Origin: Candidatus Enterousia sp.
Lineage (GTDB): Bacteria; Pseudomonadota; Alphaproteobacteria; Rs-D84
Direction: 5' to 3'
DNA: 55,505 nt
NCBI GenBank assembly: GCA_045613315.1
Contig: JAZLAV010000019.1
Location: 1 to 55,505, forward strand
In this document: piece by piece, positions 37,896 to 50,942 of the stretch
Layout: every line of letters begins with the position of its first letter
Numbering within the stretch: position 1 is the stretch's first letter
Position numbers and translations under genes: made by a program
Notes under the pieces: model-generated
The model's input: the letters and a program-made list of their open reading frames with translations, nothing else
Told to the model about the DNA's origin: nothing
Database searches by the model: none

Positions 37896-38660
37896 CTAGA
37901 ATTGGATACCAAATTTTGCACCGAATGTCATCGGGGCTACATTAAAGCCCTTGGCAACATTCTTTTCTGCATAAACGCCAACATAGGAATTTTTGCAGAA
38001 GTTATAGTTGACACCCAATTTAACATCAACCGGTTTCTGGTGATGATATTTCAGGTTCAATTCCGCAGGAACATACGCGTCATGCAATTTGAAACCATAT
38101 GTCGCACCACCGACCAAGTTCAGGTGTTTACCCAAATATACCTGGCCTTCGAATCCGGCATCCATACCCCATGCGTGATGATCCAACGAAACGTTGTGTG
38201 CTTCTGCAACCGCGTTTAACGAGAACCCGTCAACAACAAAGCCATAACGTGTTCCGATTGTCCAAGAATAGAATTCGACATTCATATCGTCACGTGCATC
38301 ATAGTTTTGTGCAACTGTGCCATAGATGTCGCCCTTCCATTCATTGCCGTAATCGAACCAACGATAGTTCAGGCCCAATTCAACATAGTCCCAATTCCAT
38401 TTTGTGTTATAACGTGGCGCATCAGACGAATCGTATGAACCAGCGGTTGCCAACGAAACGGTCCACCAATCATAGAAACCATAACCAAATTCCGTACCCA
38501 ATGCATAGTGTTCGAATTCCGTATCCATTGCGAATGTTGTTTCATTATAGAACGCACCCTTGTCTGGACGATACATCGGATTACCAATGTTAAAGTTTGC
38601 CGCGTTCGCGCCGGAAACCGCCGCAAAAGCCAACAACGACGTCAAAGCCAATTTTTTCAT
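37896..38660 (-). CDS. Outer-membrane beta-barrel protein, 254 aa
   Basis: Signal peptide MKKLALTSLLAFAAVSGANA. Alternating Tyr/Gly/aromatic strands. The C-terminus is ...FGAKFGIQF with a terminal Phe. Confidence 0.75.
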   Translation of the reverse strand: MKKLALTSLLAFAAVSGANAANFNIGNPMYRPDKGAFYNETTFAMDTEFEHYALGTEFGYGFYDWWTVSLATAGSYDSSDAPRYNTKWNWDYVELGLNYRWFDYGNEWKGDIYGTVAQNYDARDDMNVEFYSWTIGTRYGFVVDGFSLNAVAEAHNVSLDHHAWGMDAGFEGQVYLGKHLNLVGGATYGFKLHDAYVPAELNLKYHHQKPVDVKLGVNYNFCKNSYVGVYAEKNVAKGFNVAPMTFGAKFGIQF

Positions 38661-38796: not shown

Positions 38797-39369
38797 TTAG
38801 AAGTTATAAGTGAACCCGATTTGGAAATCGCTGGTATTCGCAACATCATTAGCATCTGCGTATGCACCAACACCCCAACCTTTCTCTATACCCATCTTAT
38901 CATTTGCCCACGTATAACCCGCACGTACGCCCAAGAAGTTCAAATTAGCGTACAACGTAAATGATTCGGAAACATCATACGTAATCATAGGTATGACGCT
39001 GGCACCAATTTCGGACGCCGTTTCACCGTTAAAGTGCAAAAAGCCCGCTTCCACAGTGCCCTTTAATAACAAGTTCACACCGCCAAACTGCGCGACATTA
39101 TAACGCGCAAATGCACCAATTCCGTATGTTTCTGCGTCATCTTCGATGCCATTCTTTTGATATTTACGATCATAACCAAATTCACCCATGACACCAACGT
39201 CCCATTTGGAATCAACTTTCCATCCAAATTCTGGAGCCACATCTAAAATTGTTGCATGTTCATCACCAAATGAAAATGCTGCACTGCCACCGACAAAATA
39301 ATTGGTTGCTGCACTTGCAGAAGAAACCACAAATAATGCCATCAAAGACGTTAAAGCTAATTTTTTCAT
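38797..39369 (-). CDS. Outer-membrane beta-barrel protein, 190 aa (paralogue of the neighbouring OMP)
   Basis: The signal peptide MKKLALTSLMALFVVSSASA is nearly identical to that of the neighbour. The protein ends ...IGFTYNF. Confidence 0.75.
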   Translation of the reverse strand: MKKLALTSLMALFVVSSASAATNYFVGGSAAFSFGDEHATILDVAPEFGWKVDSKWDVGVMGEFGYDRKYQKNGIEDDAETYGIGAFARYNVAQFGGVNLLLKGTVEAGFLHFNGETASEIGASVIPMITYDVSESFTLYANLNFLGVRAGYTWANDKMGIEKGWGVGAYADANDVANTSDFQIGFTYNF

Positions 39370-39620: not shown

Positions 39621-40649
39621 TCAATTTTTATTTCGCAATTTTTTTATCTCGCGCCAGTCAGCGTGATGTTTTTGGTGTTCTTCGTATGATTTGGAAAAAA
39701 TATGCCCACCACGGCCATCTGCAACAAAATACAGGTAATTTGTGTCCGCCGGCCGCAACACCGCACGGATTGCCGCCGCCCCCACATTCGCAATCGGCGC
39801 CGGTGGCAAACCATTGTGGGTATATGTGTTAAACGGGCTGTCTATTTTAAGGTGTCCCGTCAACAATGGTTTTCCCTGCATATCGCCATATCCATTGGTT
39901 AACGCATACACAACTGTCGGGTCGGCCTGTAATCGCATATTTTTACGCAACCGATTTATATACACACTGGCCACCACCGGCATTTCCGATTCGCGCGGTG
40001 TTTCGCGTTGCACAATCGACGCCAGTGTTATAACATCGTGCCAATTCTTTAATGGCCGCGGAATAATATACCCCGCACGCATCAACGAATCACGGGTCGA
40101 TCCCATTTTTTTTCGTGCCAAATCCAACACCGCTAAACGCGCTGTTCCCTTGGCCACGCGGTATGTATCGGGAAAAACATCACCATCATGCAAATCACAA
40201 ACCGGCGCGGTATTTCCACGCACACATTCCACATCACCGGACAATCGTTGTGTGTTTGACAAAAGAACCTTGATTTGTTTAATGGTATAACCTTCGGGGA
40301 TAACAATATCTGTGGTGGCAACCCGCCCGCGTGCAAACATCCGCGCAACGCGCCAAATACTGGCCCCCCGGGGGATATCATAGTCCCCACGTTGTACACG
40401 CCCACCCATACGCCGGACCGCCAATTTAAACAGCGATTCGGAATACACAATATGATTTGCACGCAAATTTGTTGCAACCGATGACACACTGTCACCATTA
40501 TTTATAACAAACGAAACATCACGACGCACCGGCGACCAAACGCCCATTATATAAATAACCAAACCCAAAATTATCGCGACCAGCGCAATAAATTGATTAC
40601 GTGATTTCTTATTTGGGAATATTTTTCTGCGCCGCATCATGAACAACAT
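39621..40649 (-). CDS. mltG: Endolytic murein transglycosylase MltG (YceG family)
   Basis: N-terminal TM, then ...VIPEGYTIKQI... and ...LASIVQRETPRESEMPVVASVYINRLRKNMRLQADPTVVYAL... Confidence 0.88.
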   Translation of the reverse strand: MLFMMRRRKIFPNKKSRNQFIALVAIILGLVIYIMGVWSPVRRDVSFVINNGDSVSSVATNLRANHIVYSESLFKLAVRRMGGRVQRGDYDIPRGASIWRVARMFARGRVATTDIVIPEGYTIKQIKVLLSNTQRLSGDVECVRGNTAPVCDLHDGDVFPDTYRVAKGTARLAVLDLARKKMGSTRDSLMRAGYIIPRPLKNWHDVITLASIVQRETPRESEMPVVASVYINRLRKNMRLQADPTVVYALTNGYGDMQGKPLLTGHLKIDSPFNTYTHNGLPPAPIANVGAAAIRAVLRPADTNYLYFVADGRGGHIFSKSYEEHQKHHADWREIKKLRNKN

Positions 40650-40683: not shown

Positions 40684-41130
40684 TTAGTATTTTTTTCTGG
40701 TCTTTAATTTGTGCCACTTTGCCATAATGTCAACCGCCGCGGGATTGTCAATATGCTTTATACGCACACGACATTTGTTGTCAAACATCCGCTTGTCGCG
40801 AAATCCGATTTTATCCGCATCGTTTCGATTGGCGGCATAATACACATGTGATACGTTCGCCCATGTTATCGCCGCCAAACACATTGGGCACGGTTCACAA
40901 GACGTATATAAATCACAACCCGACAAATCGTATGTTCCAATTTTTTTACATGCCGCACGAATCGCATTTACTTCGGCATGCGCGGTTGGGTCATGTTTGG
41001 CAACGACGGTATTATGCGCCCGTGCAACAACAACCCCGTCTCGCACGACCACGGCGCCAAATGGTGAAGAACCACTTTTTACACTTCTGTCACTTTCCGC
41101 AATCGCCATATCTATAAATTTTTTATTCAT
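40684..41130 (-). CDS. CDA-family nucleoside/nucleotide deaminase (guanine-deaminase/TadA-like), about 148 aa
   Basis: Zinc motifs HAEVNAIRAA and CEPCPMC. The start is reset to MNKKFIDMAIAE (ATG 41130). The longer ORF-track start would run through a terminator hairpin. Confidence 0.8.
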   Translation of the reverse strand: MNKKFIDMAIAESDRSVKSGSSPFGAVVVRDGVVVARAHNTVVAKHDPTAHAEVNAIRAACKKIGTYDLSGCDLYTSCEPCPMCLAAITWANVSHVYYAANRNDADKIGFRDKRMFDNKCRVRIKHIDNPAAVDIMAKWHKLKTRKKY

Positions 41131-41202: not shown

Positions 41203-41225
41203 CAAAACCGCCACTTGGGCGGTTT
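41203..41225 (-). terminator. GC-rich hairpin terminator with no gene of its own (putative displaced tRNA-Pro terminator)
   Basis: On the minus strand it reads aaaccgcc caagt ggcggtttt gatttattt. It lies 8 nt beyond a 13-nt copy of the tRNA-Pro 3' end. Confidence 0.5.
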
Positions 41226-41232
41226 GAACTTA

Positions 41233-41245
41233 TGGTCGGGTTGAC
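41233..41245. repeat. att-like direct repeat (tggtcgggttgac), 11/13 identical to the tRNA-Pro 3' end at 46291-46303
   Basis: Read directly. A second copy, tggtggggttgac, lies at 41344-41356. Confidence 0.5.
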
Positions 41246-41328
41246 CCACCAAAATCGAGAAAAAGATACCGTTTTTTTGACTCACAAAAAATTATTCTTT
41301 TACAATTACTTATGACCAAGAGGGCGGA

Positions 41329-41401
41329 GTTTCTAATCCGATATGGTGGGGTTGACATTAAGTTGCGAACTTCAAATATAACATATTGATTTTTAATAAA
41401 A
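41329..41401. repeat. Left arm of the imperfect inverted repeat bracketing the R-M cassette
   Basis: The core ggggttgacattaagttgcgaacttcaaatataacatattgatttttaataaaa matches the reverse complement of 45969-46021. The match has one indel and a handful of mismatches. Confidence 0.7.
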
Positions 41402-41484
41402 AGATACTTGTAACTTGCTTTTTGAGTTGATTTTTATGTTTTTTTGAGCGTTATAGTAATCTGAATTATAAAAATGGAGGCAAA

Positions 41485-41667
41485 ATGTCGGAGCAAACAG
41501 AAAAAATTGTTAACATCATCCTACCAGATTTGCTAAATTATTTAGAGATGGTGGAAAGTGGGGAGATTATTGAAAAACGCCTTGAGAAAAATCTTCTCTG
41601 TAAGCCAAAAGAAAAAACAAAGTTATATGTTTTAGAAGAAGATGAAAAACATGAAGGGAAAAAATAA
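41485..41667 (+). CDS. Hypothetical 60-aa acidic protein, first gene of the cassette
   Basis: A strong RBS, ggaggcaaa, precedes the ATG. The protein is Glu/Lys-rich with no recognisable HTH. Confidence 0.45.
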   Translation: MSEQTEKIVNIILPDLLNYLEMVESGEIIEKRLEKNLLCKPKEKTKLYVLEEDEKHEGKK

Positions 41668-41742
41668 TTTTTGTATATTTGCAAAAAAAACATGCATTTT
41701 TAGAAAAAATATTTTATACTATGCGCCGCGAGAGGTTATTTA

Positions 41743-44109
41743 ATGAAACAAACAAATAAATCAACATTGGGAACTTTTTCCCCAAATAAGATAGAACCAA
41801 TTCATCGTTGGTACAGTTACTTAGAAGGGTATTCTTCTATTTTAGTTGATTCTATTATACAAGAAATAGGTCCAGATAAACTCTCATCAGTATATGATCC
41901 TTTTTGTGGAACTGGAACAACTTCTCTAGTTGCCGCTAAGTACGGTGTAGATTCTTATTATAGCGAAACAAACCCTTTCATGAGACTTGTTATTGATTCG
42001 AAAATTAACAATGTCAAGAAATTAAGGGAAAATGGAATTGGCAGTGTAAATCTAAAAAAATTATTAAATAGTATAAGAAATTATAATTATTCAATGAGTT
42101 TTCAAAAGATCAATTATAATGGTTTTGAAAAGTTTTTTGATGAAGATGTATTAGAAAAACTGTTAAATATAAAAACTATAATATCAAATATTCCAGATAT
42201 TGAAACAAGACAAATTGCTTTAATTCTACTATGTTCAATCGTAGTACAATCTTCCAAAATGATACGTCAGGGAGATTTGAGGGTCGCTAAAAAGGATGAA
42301 AAAGCGGTTCATGATAAAGATGTATTTTCAAATTATATCACTAAGTTGCAACAAGCAATAGCTGATATAGATGATATAAAGACAGCACCCATTTACAATG
42401 AGACCCATTGTCTATCTGATGATGCAAAAGACAATCCCGCTAATAATCTGTTTGATTGTGTAATTACTTCACCGCCATATTTAAACGGAACTAATTACAT
42501 TAGAAACACAAAACTTGAACTCAAATTAGCAGATTTCATCATGAGTGAAACAGATCTTCCTCAATTTCATTCAAAAGGTATTATTGCAGGCATTAATAAT
42601 GTATCTAAGAGGAGAAGTTGCAGTACATCTAATCCATATGCGCAAGATATCATTAATAAGCTCGAAAAAGTAGCGTATGATAAAAGGATTCCGATTATGA
42701 TAGCCGGTTATTTTAATGATATGGAAAAAGTCATTGAACGTTTATCATATTCAATTAAAAATAACGGCTATTTTATAATGGATATAGGTGATTCACAATT
42801 TGCAGGTATACACGTTCCGACTCACGAAATTCTATCCCAAATATGTAAAAACTATGGATTTGAACTTTATGAGGAACAGGTCTTAAGAAACAGAAGATCC
42901 AAAAATAATATGGTTTTGTCTCAAAGATTGTTGAAATTTAAATTACATAAAGATGTTGATCATAGAAGCTTGTTTTATAATCAGGCTGTTAACTTTATTG
43001 AAAACATGCCATATCATAACGAGCCGTACAATAGTAGAAATTGGGGAGATTCACTGCACTCATTGTGTTCATATCATGGGAAATTAAAACCATCTATTGC
43101 TCACTTTTTAGTAAAAGAATTCACACAAAAAGGGGATTTAATTGTTGATCCATTATGTGGAGTTGGCACCATTCCTCTTGAAGCATGTTTATTGGGAAGA
43201 ATTGGAGTTGGAAACGACTTAAGTAAATTAGCCTATGTAGTAACCAAGGCCAAAATAGAAAAACCCTCATATGATGGGGCTATGACCGAATTATATAATC
43301 TTCAGCAATATATAGAGACAAATATCCATGTAAATAACGCTATTATTAAAGATGATATAAAAAAATGCGAAACCTTTGGATTTAATGGAAGTATTTCTTC
43401 ATATTATCATCCTGATACACTCAAAGAAATATTGTGGGCACGAAAATACTTTTTAGAAAAAAAAGAGCTTTCTGCTGCTGATTGCATGGTGTTTTCTTGT
43501 CTATTACATATTTTGCATGGAAATAGACCTTACGCATTATCAAGAATTTCTCATCCATTAACTCCATACAGACCAAAAGGAGATTTCTTATATAAGAATG
43601 TAATCGAGCATATTAAAGCAAAGATAGATATTTCTTATAAAAATACACAGAACGATAAGTTTACAAAAGGCTTCGCAATTCTTGGTGATTATAAGGATCT
43701 CACACATAGTAAAATACATGCAGATGCAATTATAACATCACCTCCTTTTGCCGGTTCAATAAGATTTTATATGCAAAATTGGCTAAGATTGTGGCTGTGT
43801 GGCTGGGATGAAGAAAATTATAAAGAAGCCGACACCTTATTTCTAGATCAAAAACAGAACCGTAACTTTGATGTATATTTAGATTTCTTTGAAACATGTG
43901 CAAAGTTATTAAAACCCAAAGGAAAAATGATTTTGCACTTAGGAAAAACTGCAAAAATTGATATGGCAACCGAATTAGCCCAAAGGGCACAAAAGTGGTT
44001 CGAAGAAGTGTATAGAGGTACCGAAAACGTAACTCAATTAGAAAAACATGGAGTTAAAGATAAAGGTGGAACTATAGAGCACCAATACTTATTTTTAATG
44101 AAAAAATAA
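41743..44109 (+). CDS. Two-module DNA methyltransferase (SPPY and SPPF catalytic motifs), 788 aa
   Basis: The AdoMet motif I DPFCGTGTT is at aa 52-60 and DPLCGVGT at aa 469-476. Motif IV SPPY is at aa 243-246 (nt 42469-42480) and SPPF at aa 666-669. The RBS gagagg is present. Confidence 0.85.
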   Translation: MKQTNKSTLGTFSPNKIEPIHRWYSYLEGYSSILVDSIIQEIGPDKLSSVYDPFCGTGTTSLVAAKYGVDSYYSETNPFMRLVIDSKINNVKKLRENGIGSVNLKKLLNSIRNYNYSMSFQKINYNGFEKFFDEDVLEKLLNIKTIISNIPDIETRQIALILLCSIVVQSSKMIRQGDLRVAKKDEKAVHDKDVFSNYITKLQQAIADIDDIKTAPIYNETHCLSDDAKDNPANNLFDCVITSPPYLNGTNYIRNTKLELKLADFIMSETDLPQFHSKGIIAGINNVSKRRSCSTSNPYAQDIINKLEKVAYDKRIPIMIAGYFNDMEKVIERLSYSIKNNGYFIMDIGDSQFAGIHVPTHEILSQICKNYGFELYEEQVLRNRRSKNNMVLSQRLLKFKLHKDVDHRSLFYNQAVNFIENMPYHNEPYNSRNWGDSLHSLCSYHGKLKPSIAHFLVKEFTQKGDLIVDPLCGVGTIPLEACLLGRIGVGNDLSKLAYVVTKAKIEKPSYDGAMTELYNLQQYIETNIHVNNAIIKDDIKKCETFGFNGSISSYYHPDTLKEILWARKYFLEKKELSAADCMVFSCLLHILHGNRPYALSRISHPLTPYRPKGDFLYKNVIEHIKAKIDISYKNTQNDKFTKGFAILGDYKDLTHSKIHADAIITSPPFAGSIRFYMQNWLRLWLCGWDEENYKEADTLFLDQKQNRNFDVYLDFFETCAKLLKPKGKMILHLGKTAKIDMATELAQRAQKWFEEVYRGTENVTQLEKHGVKDKGGTIEHQYLFLMKK

Positions 44110-44111
44110 TT

Positions 44112-45593
44112 TTATTTTATGGTGACAGATCTTGGATAATGGCCAGTTATAGATTTGTATCTTTCTACTAAATCAAATTCAGAACCAATAACCCGCTTCA
44201 ATGAATCGTTTATTTTATCTGCAGTCTTGATCCCATCTCTTTCTTTTTGATATTCCGGATCCATTAAAAATTCATCATAAAACCAGACAACATTTTCAAT
44301 CAACAATTTTAAAACATCCTTATTCACTGTTTTAGAATGTAGAGTTTTGTAATCTAATCCCGTAATCTCACTCAGCTTGAGTAATTCATTCTCGCTATAA
44401 AAATCTACAGGGAAATGGTCACTTTTTTGAGAATTATGACTACTACACAAACATGTAGCGGTTTCATCTAACCTATACAAATAAGCAAGAGGCATTGTAT
44501 GATCAAGTGCCATATCATCTAGAGAAATCTCTTTAGATGATGGCCCACATTTAAAACATTTTTTTCCAAATTTTTTCCAAATATATTCTGAGAATTCTTT
44601 TTTCGTTTTGCGTTCAAATTCAAAATGAACCAGATTCCTATCTAACAATTTGTTCACTAAAATCTCAAGAGCACGTCTCCTTAATCCATCTTCCTTAAAT
44701 TGTTGAGCATTGCGTTGAGGATTTAAAGGAGCGTTTACAAAAAATTTTTTACACGCTTTACATTCTAGTTGATGCCCGTAATAGGAAATTAATTTGTCTC
44801 CTTTTATAGGCAATCCAGCCAACTCCTTTTTTGTAAAATCTTTTAAGTTCTGGATAACATAAGAACAAAAAGTTGAATGTTTACATGGGGCTCTTTTTTT
44901 ACAATGTAAGGAGAAACTTAATGTTTTCATCTCATTTTCAACATTAATAGGTAAAAATCGCCCACAACGATTACAACTTTTACAAACAACTATGCTTCCT
45001 TTTTGGAATGTATGAGCTTTAACCAAATACTTTTCAAATGGTAGTGAGGGATCTAGGTAATACAAATATGGAACATGCATTTCTGTTTTTTGATAAAAAG
45101 TTTTTTCAAAATCTGAATTTTGAAATTCTTTTTTGGTTACAGCGTCCAAATCAAAACATGCAAATTCAATATCTGTGTTCGTTTCTCCATTAATTTCTAG
45201 CGTTACCTGAATATTCTGGGCCTGTTTATTTGTTTGTAGCAATATTTCATCGTGAATTCCAACATTTTTCCAAACATCGCACTCCAAAATACTTTCCTTA
45301 TTTTTTGAGTATTTTTTACCTGAATATTCATAAGATATTTGACTTTTTAGTGTTACTTTTTTTGAAGGACGAATATATCCCCCAAAAGCTATAATAGCTT
45401 TTTTAGATGAAAAAAGTTCTACAAGACCAATTTTATCCCTTTTAAAAGTAAACTTCTCAACTTTTTGCTTAGTAATGCATTTTATTGACTTTATCAAATA
45501 GCATTCTCCACCTGTGGTCTCATCACATGTATGGAATCCACTTTCTCGTGTTACGTTTCTTCTTCTGTATGTTCTAAAATTTTGTTCCGCCAT
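44112..45593 (-). CDS. Putative restriction endonuclease with Cys-cluster (Zn-ribbon-like) region and C-terminal HNH nuclease motif, about 493 aa
   Basis: The HNH/beta-beta-alpha-Me region reads CFKCGPSSKEISLDDMALDHTMPLAYLYRLDETATCLCSSHNSQKSDH (about nt 44415-44558). Upstream Cys clusters are CKSCNRC...C...C...C...CKAC. The first ATG is at 45593 (the ORF-track start at 45605 is TTG). The gene converges on the MTase with a 2-nt gap. Confidence 0.7.
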   Translation of the reverse strand: MAEQNFRTYRRRNVTRESGFHTCDETTGGECYLIKSIKCITKQKVEKFTFKRDKIGLVELFSSKKAIIAFGGYIRPSKKVTLKSQISYEYSGKKYSKNKESILECDVWKNVGIHDEILLQTNKQAQNIQVTLEINGETNTDIEFACFDLDAVTKKEFQNSDFEKTFYQKTEMHVPYLYYLDPSLPFEKYLVKAHTFQKGSIVVCKSCNRCGRFLPINVENEMKTLSFSLHCKKRAPCKHSTFCSYVIQNLKDFTKKELAGLPIKGDKLISYYGHQLECKACKKFFVNAPLNPQRNAQQFKEDGLRRRALEILVNKLLDRNLVHFEFERKTKKEFSEYIWKKFGKKCFKCGPSSKEISLDDMALDHTMPLAYLYRLDETATCLCSSHNSQKSDHFPVDFYSENELLKLSEITGLDYKTLHSKTVNKDVLKLLIENVVWFYDEFLMDPEYQKERDGIKTADKINDSLKRVIGSEFDLVERYKSITGHYPRSVTIK

Positions 45594-45968
45594 TTGATAA
45601 TCCAATTCTAAAATTCAAGAATATTTTGCCTCTATGCATCTTTGGATATTCTATCAAAAAAAATTTCAAAACACAAGACCTCAACCATATATTATTTTAT
45701 GATGAGCTAGCGACCGGTAAACAAATTTTGACCTACCAAAACAAACTCGAGCATGTTGACAACACAATTTGGCAGCATGGTCGATAAATCATTGTAATTC
45801 AATGTCTTACATGCATTATTATTCTTCTGAAGTTCAAATCCACTCTGGTGACCTTGAGCAGATTAGAAATGCTGGCAGCAAGGTAAAAAATGTAGCTATT
45901 TCAATATGCTATACAAAAATGATGCAGATTGTAATAACGCTTAGATATATCCAAAAGTCAAATAAATA

Positions 45969-46040
45969 TTTTATTCAGAATCAATATGTTACGCTTGAAG
46001 TTCGCAACCAATCTCAACCCCTCTTGAGTGGATTTGAACT
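45969..46040. repeat. Right arm of the inverted repeat bracketing the R-M cassette
   Basis: It is the reverse complement of 41329-41401. It also contains gagtggatttgaact (46026-46040), a perfect inverted copy of agttcaaatccactc at 45831-45845. Confidence 0.7.
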
Positions 46041-46245
46041 GGCGACATCAAGATAAAAAATATATCTATTTCAATGTGTTATACCAAGCTGTCACTCTTT
46101 CTTATTTTTTTAGGCATGGTATACTTTTGGGCCTAAGGTATACTTTTTTATGTGTAAAAATTGTCATACAATCGAATGTCGCCCTCTTGCTATCCAAAGA
46201 AAAATAATCATTAACTCATTGAAAAACATAATTAAATTATTTTAG

Positions 46246-46282
46246 ATAAAAAAATAACATAGAAGGTATACACTTTCTATGT
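46246..46282 (-). terminator. AT-rich hairpin terminator immediately 3' of tRNA-Pro (island-borne)
   Basis: On the minus strand it reads aacatagaa agtgtatacc ttctatgtt attttttt. Confidence 0.55.
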
Positions 46283-46290
46283 TACGTTTT

Positions 46291-46367
<77 letters not shown>

Positions 46368-49937: not shown

Positions 49938-50942
49938 TTAATATTCACTTAACATTTCATCCAATAAATCGTTCATATTTTGGCGGATTTGTTCACGGTC
50001 GGATGCCCATTCCAATCGCCGTACAAGGAATTTATATACGTCGTCCATTGTCAGATTCGGAATCCCCGCCACACGCGCCACACGTTTCCACGCCGTTCGT
50101 GGATCCGCCAAATGCGACCCACCACGCCCTGGGAACAACCAAAAACTGTCCTGGGGTAAATCTTGTAATAACACAACCGCACGATCGGTCAACGGCCATT
50201 CCCGCCAAAGGTCGTGATTAAAATCCAATTCTTCCCATTGCATTGAAAATATTTTGGACCGTGGCGCGAACCCATATACCAACATTAAAAACGCTGCACG
50301 AATGACATCGTCTGGTTCTTGTTCGATGGCTGCGACCAAACGTTGCAACCCATTTTTATTCAATGGTCGCACACGACGTGTTTGTTCAATTTTTGGTAAA
50401 TCGGTGGCAACATTTTGTTTGATATACCCCTGCTCTATGGCGTATTTAAAAATACTTTGTAATAAATCCTGCATACGCGATGCAATTGCCGTGCCACCTA
50501 TGGTTGACACAACACCAACGACATCATCGCGCGTAATTTCCGATATATATTTATCAAACAACGACACCAAATGCAGATTTACCGACCGAACCAGTTTCAT
50601 TTGTGAATCTTCACTGCGACGAATCCGATGGGCCACATATAAATCAAACAGTTCTTTAAACGTGATTTGTTTCCTGCGAACAATTGGTTTTTTCATCGCA
50701 TTGTCTAAAACAGTTGTCACCGCCGCACGCGCCGTTTCAATATCAACATCTGGATAATTTCCAATAAGAATTCTTTTGTCAGTTCCATGGACACGTTTAC
50801 GAACAAAGAATGTTTTAACACCACGACTGGTTATATACATTCGCAGACGCGGTTCGGAAATATCTTGGACAACATCAAACCCTTTGACCGGCGCCGGCAG
50901 ATTATCCAATATATACGGATTAAAAAAGAATTGATGTGCCAT
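49938..50942 (-). CDS. Tyrosine-recombinase (phage integrase)-like protein with an apparently degenerate catalytic region
   Basis: The N-terminal arm-type domain has the pattern ...GFDVVQDISEPRLRMYITSRGVKTFFVRKRVHGTDKRILIGNYPDVDIETARAA.... Box I-like: YGFAPRSKIFSMQWEELDF. The expected HxLRxT box reads MDDVYKF. Confidence 0.65.
   Translation of the reverse strand: MAHQFFFNPYILDNLPAPVKGFDVVQDISEPRLRMYITSRGVKTFFVRKRVHGTDKRILIGNYPDVDIETARAAVTTVLDNAMKKPIVRRKQITFKELFDLYVAHRIRRSEDSQMKLVRSVNLHLVSLFDKYISEITRDDVVGVVSTIGGTAIASRMQDLLQSIFKYAIEQGYIKQNVATDLPKIEQTRRVRPLNKNGLQRLVAAIEQEPDDVIRAAFLMLVYGFAPRSKIFSMQWEELDFNHDLWREWPLTDRAVVLLQDLPQDSFWLFPGRGGSHLADPRTAWKRVARVAGIPNLTMDDVYKFLVRRLEWASDREQIRQNMNDLLDEMLSEY

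What the first reader, a model, noticed from the sequence alone, without database searches (positions are those of the whole stretch)
41226..46290. tRNA-Pro-linked AT-rich island of about 5 kb with defence cargo, att-like repeats, a displaced terminator and no recombinase
**Composition.** Between the deaminase gene and tRNA-Pro(CGG) the sequence becomes visibly A/T-rich. Codon choice switches as well: Arg is AGA and AAA/AAT/TTT/ATT are abundant, whereas flanking genes use CGT/CGC.

**att-like repeats.** The tRNA 3' end tggtcggagtgac (46291-46303) recurs in direct orientation as tggtcgggttgac (41233-41245, 11/13). It recurs again as tggtggggttgac (41344-41356).

**Terminators.** Eight nt beyond the distal copy, on the tRNA strand, sits a host-style GC-rich terminator (41203-41225) that serves no gene. 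The tRNA itself is now followed by an AT-rich island-borne hairpin (46246-46282).

**Interpretation.** This is the footprint expected from site-specific integration into the tRNA 3' end. The double distal repeat suggests two successive events or a decayed older element. No integrase, excisionase or transposase ORF lies inside. The island is therefore either immobilised or mobilised in trans.

**Cargo.** It carries a fused double methyltransferase, an HNH nuclease and a tiny acidic ORF. I read this as a restriction-modification-type defence module whose architecture I cannot match to a named system.
Basis: partly seen in the sequence, partly recalled or inferred. Interest (0 to 1): 0.75.

Follow-up and report, generated by a model that had tools for sequence, protein, structure and literature searches.

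The report
Integrase-less tRNA-Pro island carrying restriction-modification genes
A 5-kb piece of foreign, A/T-rich DNA carrying a restriction-modification (anti-phage) gene pair sits at the very end of a proline tRNA gene in an uncultured gut alphaproteobacterium; it belongs to a small family of islands with the same ends but different cargo that have moved between species without encoding a recombinase of their own.

Summary
GC falls from about 0.44 to about 0.30 between 41250 and 46250, and codon use switches.

The integration reading is strongly supported.
- In 51 of 77 related species a GC-rich terminator follows tRNA-Pro within 15 nt. The window keeps exactly that arrangement 5 kb away, joined to the pseudo-3' end TGGTCGG.
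- Four metagenome contigs show the same junction: a host-specific terminator, then TGGTCGG, then a conserved island arm.
- The same island sits at tRNA-Pro in a contig whose tRNA variant belongs to a different species group. Island genes are 91-96% identical in nucleotides; host genes are 69-72%.
- A complete sister island has the same arms but different cargo.
- No copy encodes a recombinase, so mobilisation in trans is the best reading. No helper was found.

The cargo is an intact type II restriction-modification pair under purifying selection: a methyltransferase with two tandem modules and a nuclease of the HNH kind. This layout resembles type IIS systems such as HpyAV.

Two corrections:
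- The second "att-like" repeat is a conserved motif inside the island arm, not a second integration event.
- The tiny ORF belongs to the island backbone, not to the restriction-modification module.

The parts
46291..46367 (-). tRNA-Pro(CGG), intact; its last 7 nt (CCGACCA, read as TGGTCGG on the + strand, 46291-46297) form the proximal copy of the recombination core (attR side)
   Evidence: ARAGORN; Rfam tRNA 64.9 bits; sequence identical to the tRNA of 27 related species; homology with L001-L004 starts exactly at 46287-46291
41233..41245 (+). Distal core copy (attL side). TGGTCGG (41233-41239) is the displaced original tRNA 3' end; GTTGAC continues into the island's P' arm
   Evidence: The same TGGTCGG(R)TTGA(G/C)CC junction lies next to different host terminators in L083-L086
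41205..41225 (-). Displaced host terminator of tRNA-Pro: GC-rich hairpin with T tail, 7 nt beyond the pseudo-3' end
   Evidence: In 51 of 77 relatives such a hairpin starts within 15 nt of the tRNA 3' end, most often at 7 nt
41240..41440 (+). Left (P') arm, non-coding. Positions 41246-41299 are shared by all six island copies, including invariant ACCAAAATCGAGAAAAAGATACC. The inner part is shared with L085 and L086. The window lacks about 26 nt that the other copies have
   Evidence: Absent from all 80 species-representative loci and from the rest of the window
41322..41401 (+). Left copy of an imperfect inverted repeat of about 80 nt. It contains the second 'att-like' 13-mer (41344-41356) after an AGTTCnAATCC-like motif
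   Evidence: (I1 and I5); conserved in L081, L084, L085 and L086
41485..41667 (+). 60-aa mildly acidic ORF. About the first 40 codons are conserved in the window, L081 and L084; the C-terminus varies. Backbone-associated, function unknown
   Evidence: no family match; weak similarity to the tail of the HTH_26 controller protein of a Firmicute homologue system (E = 0.13)
41743..44109 (+). 788-aa DNA methyltransferase made of two tandem amino-methyltransferase modules, with FxGxG/SPPY at residues 52/242 and FxGxG/SPPF at 469/665
   Evidence: Pfam N6_N4_Mtase, UPF0020 and Eco57I; PADLOC MTase_II 3.4e-77 over residues 10-395; collinear halves; 60-64% identical full-length homologues in Firmicutes; dN/dS 0.08 against L081
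44112..45593 (-). Restriction endonuclease candidate, 493 aa from the ATG (497 aa from an upstream TTG at 45605). N-terminal beta-sandwich, a Cys-rich middle region, and a C-terminal HNH-like motif C350xxC...D368H..P...C385xC..H390N..K394
   Evidence: Profile search reaches relatives with Pfam HNH/HNH_5/Endonuclease_7 hits; P0304 passes the HNH cut-off and aligns on the same motif. Convergent linkage with the methyltransferase holds in L081 and L082. dN/dS 0.08
45853..46022 (+). 170-nt segment absent from the sister copy L081. It is bounded by a 65-nt direct repeat (45853-45917 and 46023-46087, 78%) and holds most of the right inverted-repeat copy (45969-46047)
   Evidence: (D1, I1, I4)
46027..46290 (+). 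Right (P) arm, non-coding, 86% mean column identity across three islands with two different cargos. It contains two GTATACTTTT repeats (46119, 46138) and the island-borne terminator hairpin 46255-46284 that now follows the tRNA
   Evidence: one compensatory pair in the hairpin

Best explanation
The segment from about 41240 to 46290 is a 5.05-kb horizontally acquired island. It was inserted by site-specific recombination into the last 7 nt of tRNA-Pro(CGG), the core TGGTCGG (CCGACCA on the tRNA strand).

**Effect of the insertion.** It pushed the tRNA's own terminator and original 3' tip 5 kb away, to 41205-41239. The island supplies an identical 3' tip and its own terminator hairpin, so the tRNA stays intact.

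**Element family.** The island is one member of a family with conserved non-coding ends: a left arm of about 60-200 nt and a right arm of about 265 nt. The cargo between the arms is interchangeable and no copy encodes a recombinase. The arms are most likely the attP arms, that is, the binding sites of a tyrosine-type integrase supplied in trans by another element. This is how cis-mobilizable elements (CIMEs) behave.

**Cargo.** The cargo is a working type II restriction-modification pair of Firmicute origin. A two-module methyltransferase presumably modifies the two strands of an asymmetric site. A convergently transcribed endonuclease has a variable N-terminal recognition part and a C-terminal HNH catalytic motif, and cuts unmodified incoming DNA.

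**Shown:** the junction anatomy, the family, the spread between lineages, the intactness of the genes and purifying selection on them.

**Inferred:** the recombinase type, mobilisation in trans, type IIS behaviour and the defence role.
For: **Foreign composition and codon use.**

**Junctions.**
- Homology with the nearest species breaks exactly at the tRNA 3' end.
- 51 of 77 relatives have a GC hairpin terminator within 15 nt of the tRNA. The window has the same arrangement at 41205-41239.
- The 13-mer is the only match with at most 2 mismatches in the window.
- A 23-mer from the left arm retrieved four metagenome contigs. Each reads host-specific terminator, spacer, TGGTCGG(R)TTGAGCC, ACCAAAATCGAG....
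- The arms are absent from 80 species-representative loci and from the rest of the window.

**Empty sites.** 20 of 37 syntenic species have at most 440 nt between mltG and the tRNA.

**Spread between lineages.** L081 carries the same island at tRNA-Pro.
- The methyltransferase gene is 91.5% and the nuclease gene 95.7% identical in nucleotides, with dS of 0.39 and 0.18.
- L081's tRNA variant equals that of a species group whose AMP-ligase gene is only 69-72% identical to the window's, with third positions saturated.
- L081's left flank differs from the window's.

**Same ends, other cargo.**
- L086 is a complete 2.76-kb island with the same arms and a single UGSC-family gene.
- L083 and L084 diverge from the window into other cargo after shared arm sequence.

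**No recombinase.** None in any copy.

**Restriction-modification pair.**. The analogous architecture of HpyAV is described in PMC2816704. The definition of a CIME is in PMC5704250.
Against: - No helper integrase was found. The arms have no match in IMG/VR, and contexts of the L086 cargo homologues gave no helper.
- The only integrase-like gene in the window (49938-50942) is a conserved core gene that lacks the HxxR box and the catalytic tyrosine.
- L081's host is placed only by 56 nt of tRNA. Its left junction lacks TGGTCGG and a terminator.
- No empty site from the same species was available. The nearest species (L001) has 750 nt of other DNA in the slot.
- Two other restriction-modification systems occupy the same slot in L012 and L014 without any tRNA-end repeat. 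The slot can therefore also be filled by other routes.
- The window copy has a 26-nt deletion in the left arm and a 170-nt extra segment on the right, so this particular copy may no longer be mobile.
- The nuclease has no direct HNH model match, and its HNH region is poorly modelled.
Confidence: 0.6

Rival explanations
1. This is an ordinary tRNA-integrating island that once carried its own integrase. Every copy seen is a decayed, now immobile remnant. The similarity between the window and L081 reflects transfer of a larger, integrase-bearing ancestor, followed by the same or parallel deletions.
For: - Loss of the integrase is the recognised first step towards a CIME (PMC5704250).
- The window copy shows decay in its arms.
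- L081's left flank is unknown DNA that could belong to a larger element.
- L086 ends in a tRNA-like stub followed by other DNA, as in tandem arrays.
Against: - The window, L081 and L086 are collinear from arm to arm, with cargo directly abutting the arms and no integrase pseudogene.
- The window's left end abuts the host terminator exactly where L083-L086 do, so nothing is missing at that end.
- Parallel clean deletions in several lineages are unlikely.
Confidence: 0.17
2. There was no site-specific recombination. The slot downstream of tRNA-Pro is a general hot spot. DNA taken up from outside is inserted there by homologous recombination through conserved flanks, or by illegitimate or microhomology-mediated insertion with a short target duplication, as proposed for some mobile restriction-modification units.
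For: - The same slot holds unrelated low-GC restriction-modification systems in L012 and L014 without tRNA-end repeats. It holds other genes in 15 further species.
- L001 has a GIY-YIG ORF there, flanked by a 26-bp direct repeat.
- Conserved arms could act as homology handles for cargo exchange.
Against: - Host flanks of the different island copies are unrelated to one another and to the 80 loci, so homologous recombination has no left-hand substrate.
- Five junctions fall at the same 7-nt core next to five different host sequences.
- The arm lengths are those of attP arms.
- Homologous exchange may still explain cargo swapping inside the family.
Confidence: 0.1
3. The mobile unit is the cassette bounded by the inverted repeat of about 80 nt (41322-41401 and 45969-46047). 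It would be a transposon-like or invertible element nested in an older tRNA-linked scar.
For: - The 40-nt inner arms are 88% complementary and unique in the window.
- L090 carries the L086 cargo with only the inner parts of both arms and no tRNA-Pro nearby. The shared block starts at the outer edge of the left repeat.
Against: - There is no transposase and no target-site duplication.
- The right repeat copy lies in a 170-nt segment that the sister island L081 lacks. L081's left arm has a different inner sequence, so the long inverted repeat is specific to this lineage.
- L090 also keeps fragments of the outer right arm, as expected from decay rather than transposition.
Confidence: 0.08
4. The repeats are a chance resemblance, and the AT-rich segment is simply a divergent native region.
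For: The 13-mer is short and imperfect (11/13). Shuffled windows give 0.69 such matches somewhere.
Against: All of the comparative evidence above.
Confidence: 0.01

Closest known systems
Cis-mobilizable elements (CIMEs) of the ICESt1/ICESt3 type; tandem accretion at tRNA or gene 3' ends (definition in PMC5704250)
   Same: Flanked by attL and attR at the 3' end of a conserved gene. No integration, excision or transfer genes. Expected to move only when a related element supplies the recombinase. A possible tandem array is seen in L086.
   Different: No cognate integrative conjugative element or integrase is known here. The elements are very small (2.8-5 kb), carry one cargo module between conserved arms, and occur in uncultured gut Alphaproteobacteria with genomes of about 1 Mb. 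Mobilisation has not been shown.
Classical tRNA-integrated genomic islands and prophages with P4- or lambda-type tyrosine integrases
   Same: Target is the tRNA 3' end. There is a short direct repeat of the tRNA tip, the tRNA is rebuilt from element-borne sequence, the composition is foreign, and the non-coding arms are of attP size.
   Different: The defining integrase gene next to the tRNA is absent (tested, not met).
HpyAV/Hin4II type IIS restriction-modification systems (PMC2816704)
   Same: One polypeptide carries two methyltransferase domains, next to an HNH-type endonuclease of about 420-500 aa.
   Different: M.HpyAV fuses a C5-cytosine and an N6-adenine module and lies in the same orientation as the nuclease gene. 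Here both modules are amino-methyltransferases with SPP(Y/F) motifs and the genes converge. No sequence relationship to HpyAV was tested or seen. Recognition and cleavage sites are unknown.
Mobile restriction-modification units bracketed by repeats (comparative work of Kobayashi and colleagues; cited from my own knowledge, not read here)
   Same: Restriction-modification genes as a self-contained insert with flanking direct or inverted repeats, at a site that is empty in relatives.
   Different: Here the repeats are a tRNA-derived core plus conserved arms. The same arms also carry cargo that is not restriction-modification.
Integron gene cassettes
   Same: A fixed chromosomal site receives interchangeable cargo modules that lack a recombinase.
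   Different: No IntI and no attI or attC sites. The neighbouring integrase-like core gene lacks catalytic residues. This is an analogy only.

Membership tests
tRNA-integrated genomic island (site-specific integration) | Insert abuts the 3' end of a tRNA gene, which remains intact | tested here: met
tRNA-integrated genomic island (site-specific integration) | Direct repeat of the tRNA 3' end at the distal boundary, at the real junction | tested here: met
   The 7-nt core is perfect and the 13-mer matches 11/13. The same junction lies next to four other host sequences
tRNA-integrated genomic island (site-specific integration) | Empty site in relatives, with the tRNA directly followed by its terminator | tested here: met
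   51 of 77 species have the terminator within 15 nt. 20 of 37 syntenic species have at most 440 nt in the slot. No strain of the same species was available
tRNA-integrated genomic island (site-specific integration) | Integrase gene encoded by the island | tested here: not met
   No recombinase family in any island ORF, nor in L081, L083 or L086
Cis-mobilizable element (CIME) | Retains attL and attR but has no integration or transfer genes | tested here: met
   definition in PMC5704250
Cis-mobilizable element (CIME) | A cognate element whose integrase recognises the same att site and mobilises it | tested here: inconclusive
   No helper found in viral contigs or cargo contexts. The recent spread between lineages argues that one exists
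Type II restriction-modification system, type IIS-like with fused methyltransferase | DNA methyltransferase with SAM-binding and catalytic motifs; two modules for an asymmetric site | tested here: met
   The base modified by each module could not be determined
Type II restriction-modification system, type IIS-like with fused methyltransferase | Adjacent nuclease gene, with the linkage conserved in other genomes | tested here: met
   L081 and L082. At least eight nuclease/methyltransferase homologue pairs report the same longest-contig length
Type II restriction-modification system, type IIS-like with fused methyltransferase | Sequence-specific cleavage at a fixed offset from an asymmetric site, blocked by the cognate methylation | not testable with these tools
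   Needs a methylome and enzyme assays
HNH (beta-beta-alpha-Me) nuclease superfamily | Match to an HNH family model | tested here: inconclusive
   No match for the window protein or its 80-aa motif region. Distant relative P0304 (profile E = 1.5e-51) passes the Pfam HNH cut-off, and four other distant relatives give weak HNH, HNH_5 or Endonuclease_7 hits
HNH (beta-beta-alpha-Me) nuclease superfamily | Conserved CxxC...DH..P...C.C..(C/H)N..K motif | tested here: met
   Invariant in 33 close homologues. It aligns with the Pfam-recognised HNH stretch of P0304
HNH (beta-beta-alpha-Me) nuclease superfamily | Beta-beta-alpha fold around a metal site | tested here: inconclusive
   The AlphaFold model has pLDDT 40-60 in residues 350-400. 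Foldseek matched only the N-terminal beta-sandwich
Transposon or miniature inverted-repeat element | Terminal inverted repeats plus target-site duplication, a transposase or multiple genomic copies | tested here: not met
   The inverted repeat is present. There is no transposase, no duplication and no other copy in the window or in 80 loci. The long inverted repeat is missing from the sister copy

The most novel reading that the evidence does not exclude
The window holds one member of an undescribed family of miniature, recombinase-free 'cassette islands'. They are specific for the 3' tip of tRNA-Pro(CGG) in streamlined gut Alphaproteobacteria.

Conserved attP-like arms would act as a portable docking module. 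Single cargo units are exchanged between those arms: restriction-modification genes, a secreted UGSC-family protein, and kinase or methyltransferase genes. The whole element hops between species using a recombinase that it does not encode. That recombinase could come from a phage or a conjugative element not yet linked to this host group.
Probability: 0.3. Interest if true: 0.65.

Novelty: new variant of a known kind. Interest (0 to 1): 0.45.

Why it matters
- **Gene flow into a poorly known group.** Candidatus Enterousia-like bacteria are uncultured, have genomes of about 1 Mb and are common in animal and human guts. This locus shows a concrete route by which they acquire Firmicute defence genes.
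- **A small, well-defined element.** It has a 7-nt core and arms of about 60-200 nt and 265 nt. Its attP and attB junctions can be searched for directly in read data. That makes mobilisation in trans testable in a group with no genetics.
- **An unnamed nuclease family.** The restriction-modification pair is widespread in gut and vaginal Firmicutes, where the nuclease is annotated only as hypothetical. Naming it as an HNH restriction enzyme candidate with a modular N-terminus is useful for annotation and for enzyme discovery.
- **Limits.** None of this overturns current ideas. tRNA-linked islands, defence cargo and integrase-less derivatives are all known kinds.

Tried and rejected
- **Exact-protein look-ups.** The flanking deaminase and AMP-ligase found nothing, so no same-species strains could be compared.
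- **Nuclease against solved structures.** Sequence and profile searches against the PDB gave only noise. The methyltransferase also had no PDB relative. Foldseek on the AlphaFold model returned only beta-sandwich carbohydrate-binding or capsid folds for the N-terminal domain.
- **Nuclease in plasmids.** tblastn found a single 34%-identical 'hypothetical protein' on a Psychrobacter plasmid.
- **RNA families.** Rfam found nothing in the island or arms except the tRNA. The consensus fold of the right arm has too few sequences to be meaningful beyond the terminator hairpin.
- **Viral contigs.** Arm patterns had no match in IMG/VR.
- **Host flanks of the metagenome copies.** The left flanks of L083-L086 match none of the 80 species loci, so their hosts could not be placed.
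- **Search for a helper.** Contexts of homologues of the L086 cargo showed ordinary chromosomal neighbourhoods. The exception was L090, a decayed copy.
- **Integrase-like gene at 49938-50942 as the helper: rejected.** It is a core gene in 63 relatives and lacks the HxxR box and the catalytic tyrosine.
- **Tiny ORF as an R-M controller protein: not supported.** It has no HTH match, and E = 0.13 against the HTH_26 protein of the Anaerotignum system.
- **The inverted repeat as a genome-wide repeat family: rejected**.
- **tRNA-end repeats around the other R-M inserts in L012 and L014:** none found.

Full report
**Host and setting.** A search with the flanking AMP-dependent ligase returned 80 loci, one per species. 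All come from uncultured gut Alphaproteobacteria, many labelled Candidatus Enterousia. One is a closed chromosome of 958,618 bp. The local gene order in the window is:
- mltG (39621-40649, minus strand)
- a cytidine/dCMP-type deaminase (40684-41130, minus)
- the finding
- tRNA-Pro(CGG) (46291-46367, minus)
- the AMP-ligase, fabF and acpP

- GC is 0.28-0.34 in every 500-nt window from 41250 to 46249. It is 0.41-0.51 on both sides.
- GC3 is 0.23 in the island ORFs and 0.44 in flanking genes. Arg is AGA/AGG in 72% of island codons and 7% of flank codons.
- The three 13-mers, the minus-strand GC-rich terminator (41205-41225) and the AT-rich hairpin next to the tRNA (46255-46284) are all present.
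- The distal 13-mer is the only match with at most 2 mismatches in the 55.5-kb window.

**The displaced terminator is the strongest single clue in the window.** I printed the 110 nt downstream of tRNA-Pro in all relatives. With a simple hairpin test, 51 of 77 have a GC-rich hairpin with a T tail starting within 15 nt of the tRNA 3' end, most often at 7 nt. The window shows exactly this arrangement 5 kb from the tRNA: AAAACCGCCACTTGGGCGGTTT-GAACTTA-TGGTCGG. It is almost superimposable on, for example, L071: AAAACCGCCACAGGGGCGGTTT-AAATTTT-TGGTCGG. So 41205-41239 is the original tail of the tRNA gene, cut off from it by the insert.

**Comparison with related species.**
- Nucleotide homology with the four closest species stops at 46287-46291 on the right and at the deaminase start codon (41132) on the left.
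- In 37 species with the mltG...tRNA-Pro arrangement, 20 have at most 440 nt in the slot. The other 17 have 0.7-4 kb of varied content.
- Two of those inserts are other low-GC restriction-modification systems. L012 has a 1210-aa Eco57I/Methylase_S enzyme. L014 has an EcoRI-like nuclease plus a D12 methyltransferase. Neither shows a tRNA-end repeat.
- The slot is therefore a general hot spot, but the att-type footprint is particular to the window's element.

**A family of islands with the same ends.**
- The nuclease's only close relative (97% aa) lies on a 5.1-kb Logan contig, L081. L081 is collinear with the window from the left arm to inside tRNA-Pro.
- An exact 23-mer from the left arm (ACCAAAATCGAGAAAAAGATACC) retrieved four metagenome contigs, L083-L086.
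- All four read: a host-specific terminator, or other host sequence in L085; a short spacer; TGGTCGG(A/G)TTGAGCC; then the conserved arm.
- With the window, that makes five junctions at the same 7-nt core next to five unrelated host sequences. This defines TGGTCGG as the crossover region and RTTGA(G/C)CCACCAAAATCGAG... as island DNA.
- L086 is a complete 2.76-kb island with the same left arm. Its right arm has 86% mean column identity with the window's over about 265 nt. Its cargo is a single 705-aa UGSC-family gene.
- L083 diverges after 67 shared nt into a methyltransferase-like gene and a phosphotransferase gene.
- L084 shares the left arm and about the first 43 codons of the small ORF with L081, and then continues into other DNA.
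- The arms occur in none of the 80 species loci and nowhere else in the window.

**Movement between lineages.**
- L081's 56 nt of tRNA-Pro differ at 5 positions from the window's tRNA. They are identical to the variant carried by ten species representatives (L013, L028, L030 and others).
- The AMP-ligase genes of nine of those ten species were compared. They are only 69-72% identical in nucleotides to the window's, and third positions are 44-50% identical, which is saturated.
- The island genes are far closer. The methyltransferase gene is 91.5% identical (dS 0.39) and the nuclease gene 95.7% (dS 0.18). dN/dS is 0.08 for both.
- For comparison, dS for the AMP-ligase against even the nearest species is 1.5.
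- The island therefore entered the two lineages long after they split, already in its present recombinase-free form, and both genes are kept by selection.
- Caveats: L081's host is placed by the tRNA fragment only. Its left junction lacks the TGGTCGG core and a terminator, which I cannot explain.

**No recombinase, and no helper found.**
- No island ORF in any copy matches an integrase, excisionase, resolvase or transposase.
- I scanned the integrase-sized ORFs of the whole window and found one integrase-like gene, 49938-50942, 3.6 kb beyond the tRNA. It has an arm-binding domain, a central domain and the first third of the catalytic domain.
- It is not a plausible helper. It is a full-length core gene next to acpP in 63 relatives. 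The conserved alignment has LTMDDVxKF where the HxxR box should be, and no conserved C-terminal tyrosine.
- Arm motifs have no match in IMG/VR.
- The element thus fits the published definition of a cis-mobilizable element: att sites retained, integration and transfer genes absent (PMC5704250). Mobilisation in trans is inferred from its spread, not shown.

**Fine structure of the arms.**
- The 'second distal repeat' (41344-41356) is conserved as CTGGTGGGGTTGA(G/C) in L081, L084, L085 and L086. It is therefore part of the arm and not a trace of a second integration.
- It lies in the left copy of an imperfect inverted repeat of about 80 nt (41322-41401 against 45969-46047). The inner 40 nt are 88% complementary and unique in the window.
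- Most of the right copy sits in a 170-nt segment (45853-46022) that L081 lacks. L081 and L084 have a different inner left-arm sequence. The long inverted repeat is therefore specific to this lineage.
- GTAT(N)CTTTT occurs four times in the island, only in the arms, twice per arm and in opposite orientations. Shuffled island sequence gives 0.27. These are candidate protein-binding sites, but I noticed them after the fact.
- The island-borne terminator hairpin is conserved in three islands with one compensatory pair.
- L090 carries the L086 cargo with only inner arm fragments and no tRNA. It looks like a decayed copy.

**Cargo: the methyltransferase.**
- The 788-aa protein has two collinear modules. 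Each has an FxGxG motif followed about 190 residues later by SPPY or SPPF (residues 52/242 and 469/665). The halves align with each other.
- It matches Pfam N6_N4_Mtase, UPF0020 and Eco57I, and PADLOC type II methyltransferase models.

**Cargo: the nuclease.**
- The protein is 493 aa from the ATG. It has no direct family or PDB match.
- The AlphaFold model is confident only for an N-terminal beta-sandwich (residues 34-155).
- Thirty-three close homologues keep C350xxC, D368-H369, P372, C385xC387, H390-N391 and K394 invariant.
- A profile search of 1.84 billion cluster representatives found 401 relatives. Many share only the C-terminal half behind different N-termini.
- Of ten distant relatives scanned, one passes the Pfam HNH threshold and four others give weak HNH, HNH_5 or Endonuclease_7 hits. 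These hits align on the same motif.
- I therefore accept 'HNH-type nuclease' through transitive homology. The modular N-terminus fits a swappable recognition domain.

**Cargo: the system as a whole.**
- The pair is 60-64% identical to pairs in Clostridiales, Anaerotignum, Finegoldia, Lactobacillus iners and Christensenellales.
- In Anaerotignum it is convergent and preceded by an HTH_26 controller-type gene.
- A fused two-domain methyltransferase next to an HNH endonuclease is the layout of the type IIS system HpyAV (PMC2816704). The domains there are of different classes, and no sequence relationship was tested.
- The low GC and the Firmicute relatives point to a Firmicute origin.

**The tiny ORF.** Its first 40 or so codons are conserved in the window, L081 and L084, while the C-termini differ through frameshifts and a cargo breakpoint. 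It has no family match and only a weak resemblance to the tail of the Anaerotignum controller protein. It travels with the island backbone. Its function is unknown.

**Verdict.** This is a genuine, well-delimited horizontally acquired island, integrated at the 3' tip of tRNA-Pro(CGG). It carries an intact type II (probably type IIS-like) restriction-modification system. It belongs to a small family of recombinase-free islands with conserved att arms and exchangeable cargo. This is a new variant of known kinds (tRNA islands, CIMEs, defence islets) in a little-studied host group. It is of moderate interest, mainly because it makes mobilisation in trans directly testable in read data.

Noticed in passing
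window 49938-50942 (minus strand): A 334-aa integrase-like ORF with an arm-DNA-binding domain, a phage-integrase central domain and only the first third of the catalytic domain. It is conserved full-length next to acpP in 63 related species (58-83% aa identity). It lacks the HxxR box and the catalytic tyrosine. It looks like a domesticated, probably non-catalytic integrase relic kept as a core gene, 3.6 kb from the tRNA-Pro hot spot.
   Followed up: partly
L012 6111-9743; L014 7836-9672: The same mltG...tRNA-Pro slot holds other low-GC (0.27) restriction-modification systems in two related species. L012 has a 1210-aa Eco57I/Methylase_S single-chain enzyme. L014 has an EcoRI-like nuclease with a D12-class methyltransferase. 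Neither has a tRNA-end repeat or a recombinase.
   Followed up: partly
L001 9425-9450 and 9765-9790: A perfect 26-bp direct repeat flanks an 82-aa GIY-YIG-type ORF immediately downstream of tRNA-Pro in the closest species with context. An 85-aa ORF lies next to it. This is a different small insertion at the same site.
   Followed up: no
L086 3910-4068: The complete sister island does not end at a full tRNA. It ends at a 25-nt tRNA-like stub (TGGTCGGATTGCCTGGACTCGAACC) followed by unrelated DNA, and ARAGORN finds no tRNA. This suggests a tandem array in which a second element, using a longer tRNA-derived att site, lies between it and the tRNA.
   Followed up: partly
L090 1930-4390: A 90%-identical copy of the L086 cargo gene is flanked only by the inner parts of both island arms and is not next to tRNA-Pro. 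It is either a decayed island or evidence that the unit bounded by the inverted repeat can relocate.
   Followed up: partly
window 40684-41130 (minus strand): Among the 37 syntenic species, the deaminase gene next to the island is found only in the window and in L001. It may itself be a lineage-specific addition to this variable slot. The longest ORF call (176 aa from a GTG at 41214) overruns the displaced terminator, and the ATG at 41130 is the likely start.
   Followed up: partly
window 37896-38660 and 38797-39369 (minus strand): Two adjacent paralogous ORFs share the signal-peptide-like start MKKLALTSL and look like outer-membrane beta-barrel proteins. They lie just upstream of mltG. L004 shows short repeated matches to their 5' ends.
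   Followed up: no
downstream of the tRNA-Pro terminator in L004, L006, L011, L052, L054, L065, L068, L072, L079 and also L083/L084 (listing): A recurring conserved segment (…TTGTCGAACC…CAATGTGTG.TATCG.CC…) lies just beyond the terminator in many relatives. Rfam gathering-threshold scans of six of these loci found no family there. It could be a gene end or an undescribed RNA.
   Followed up: partly
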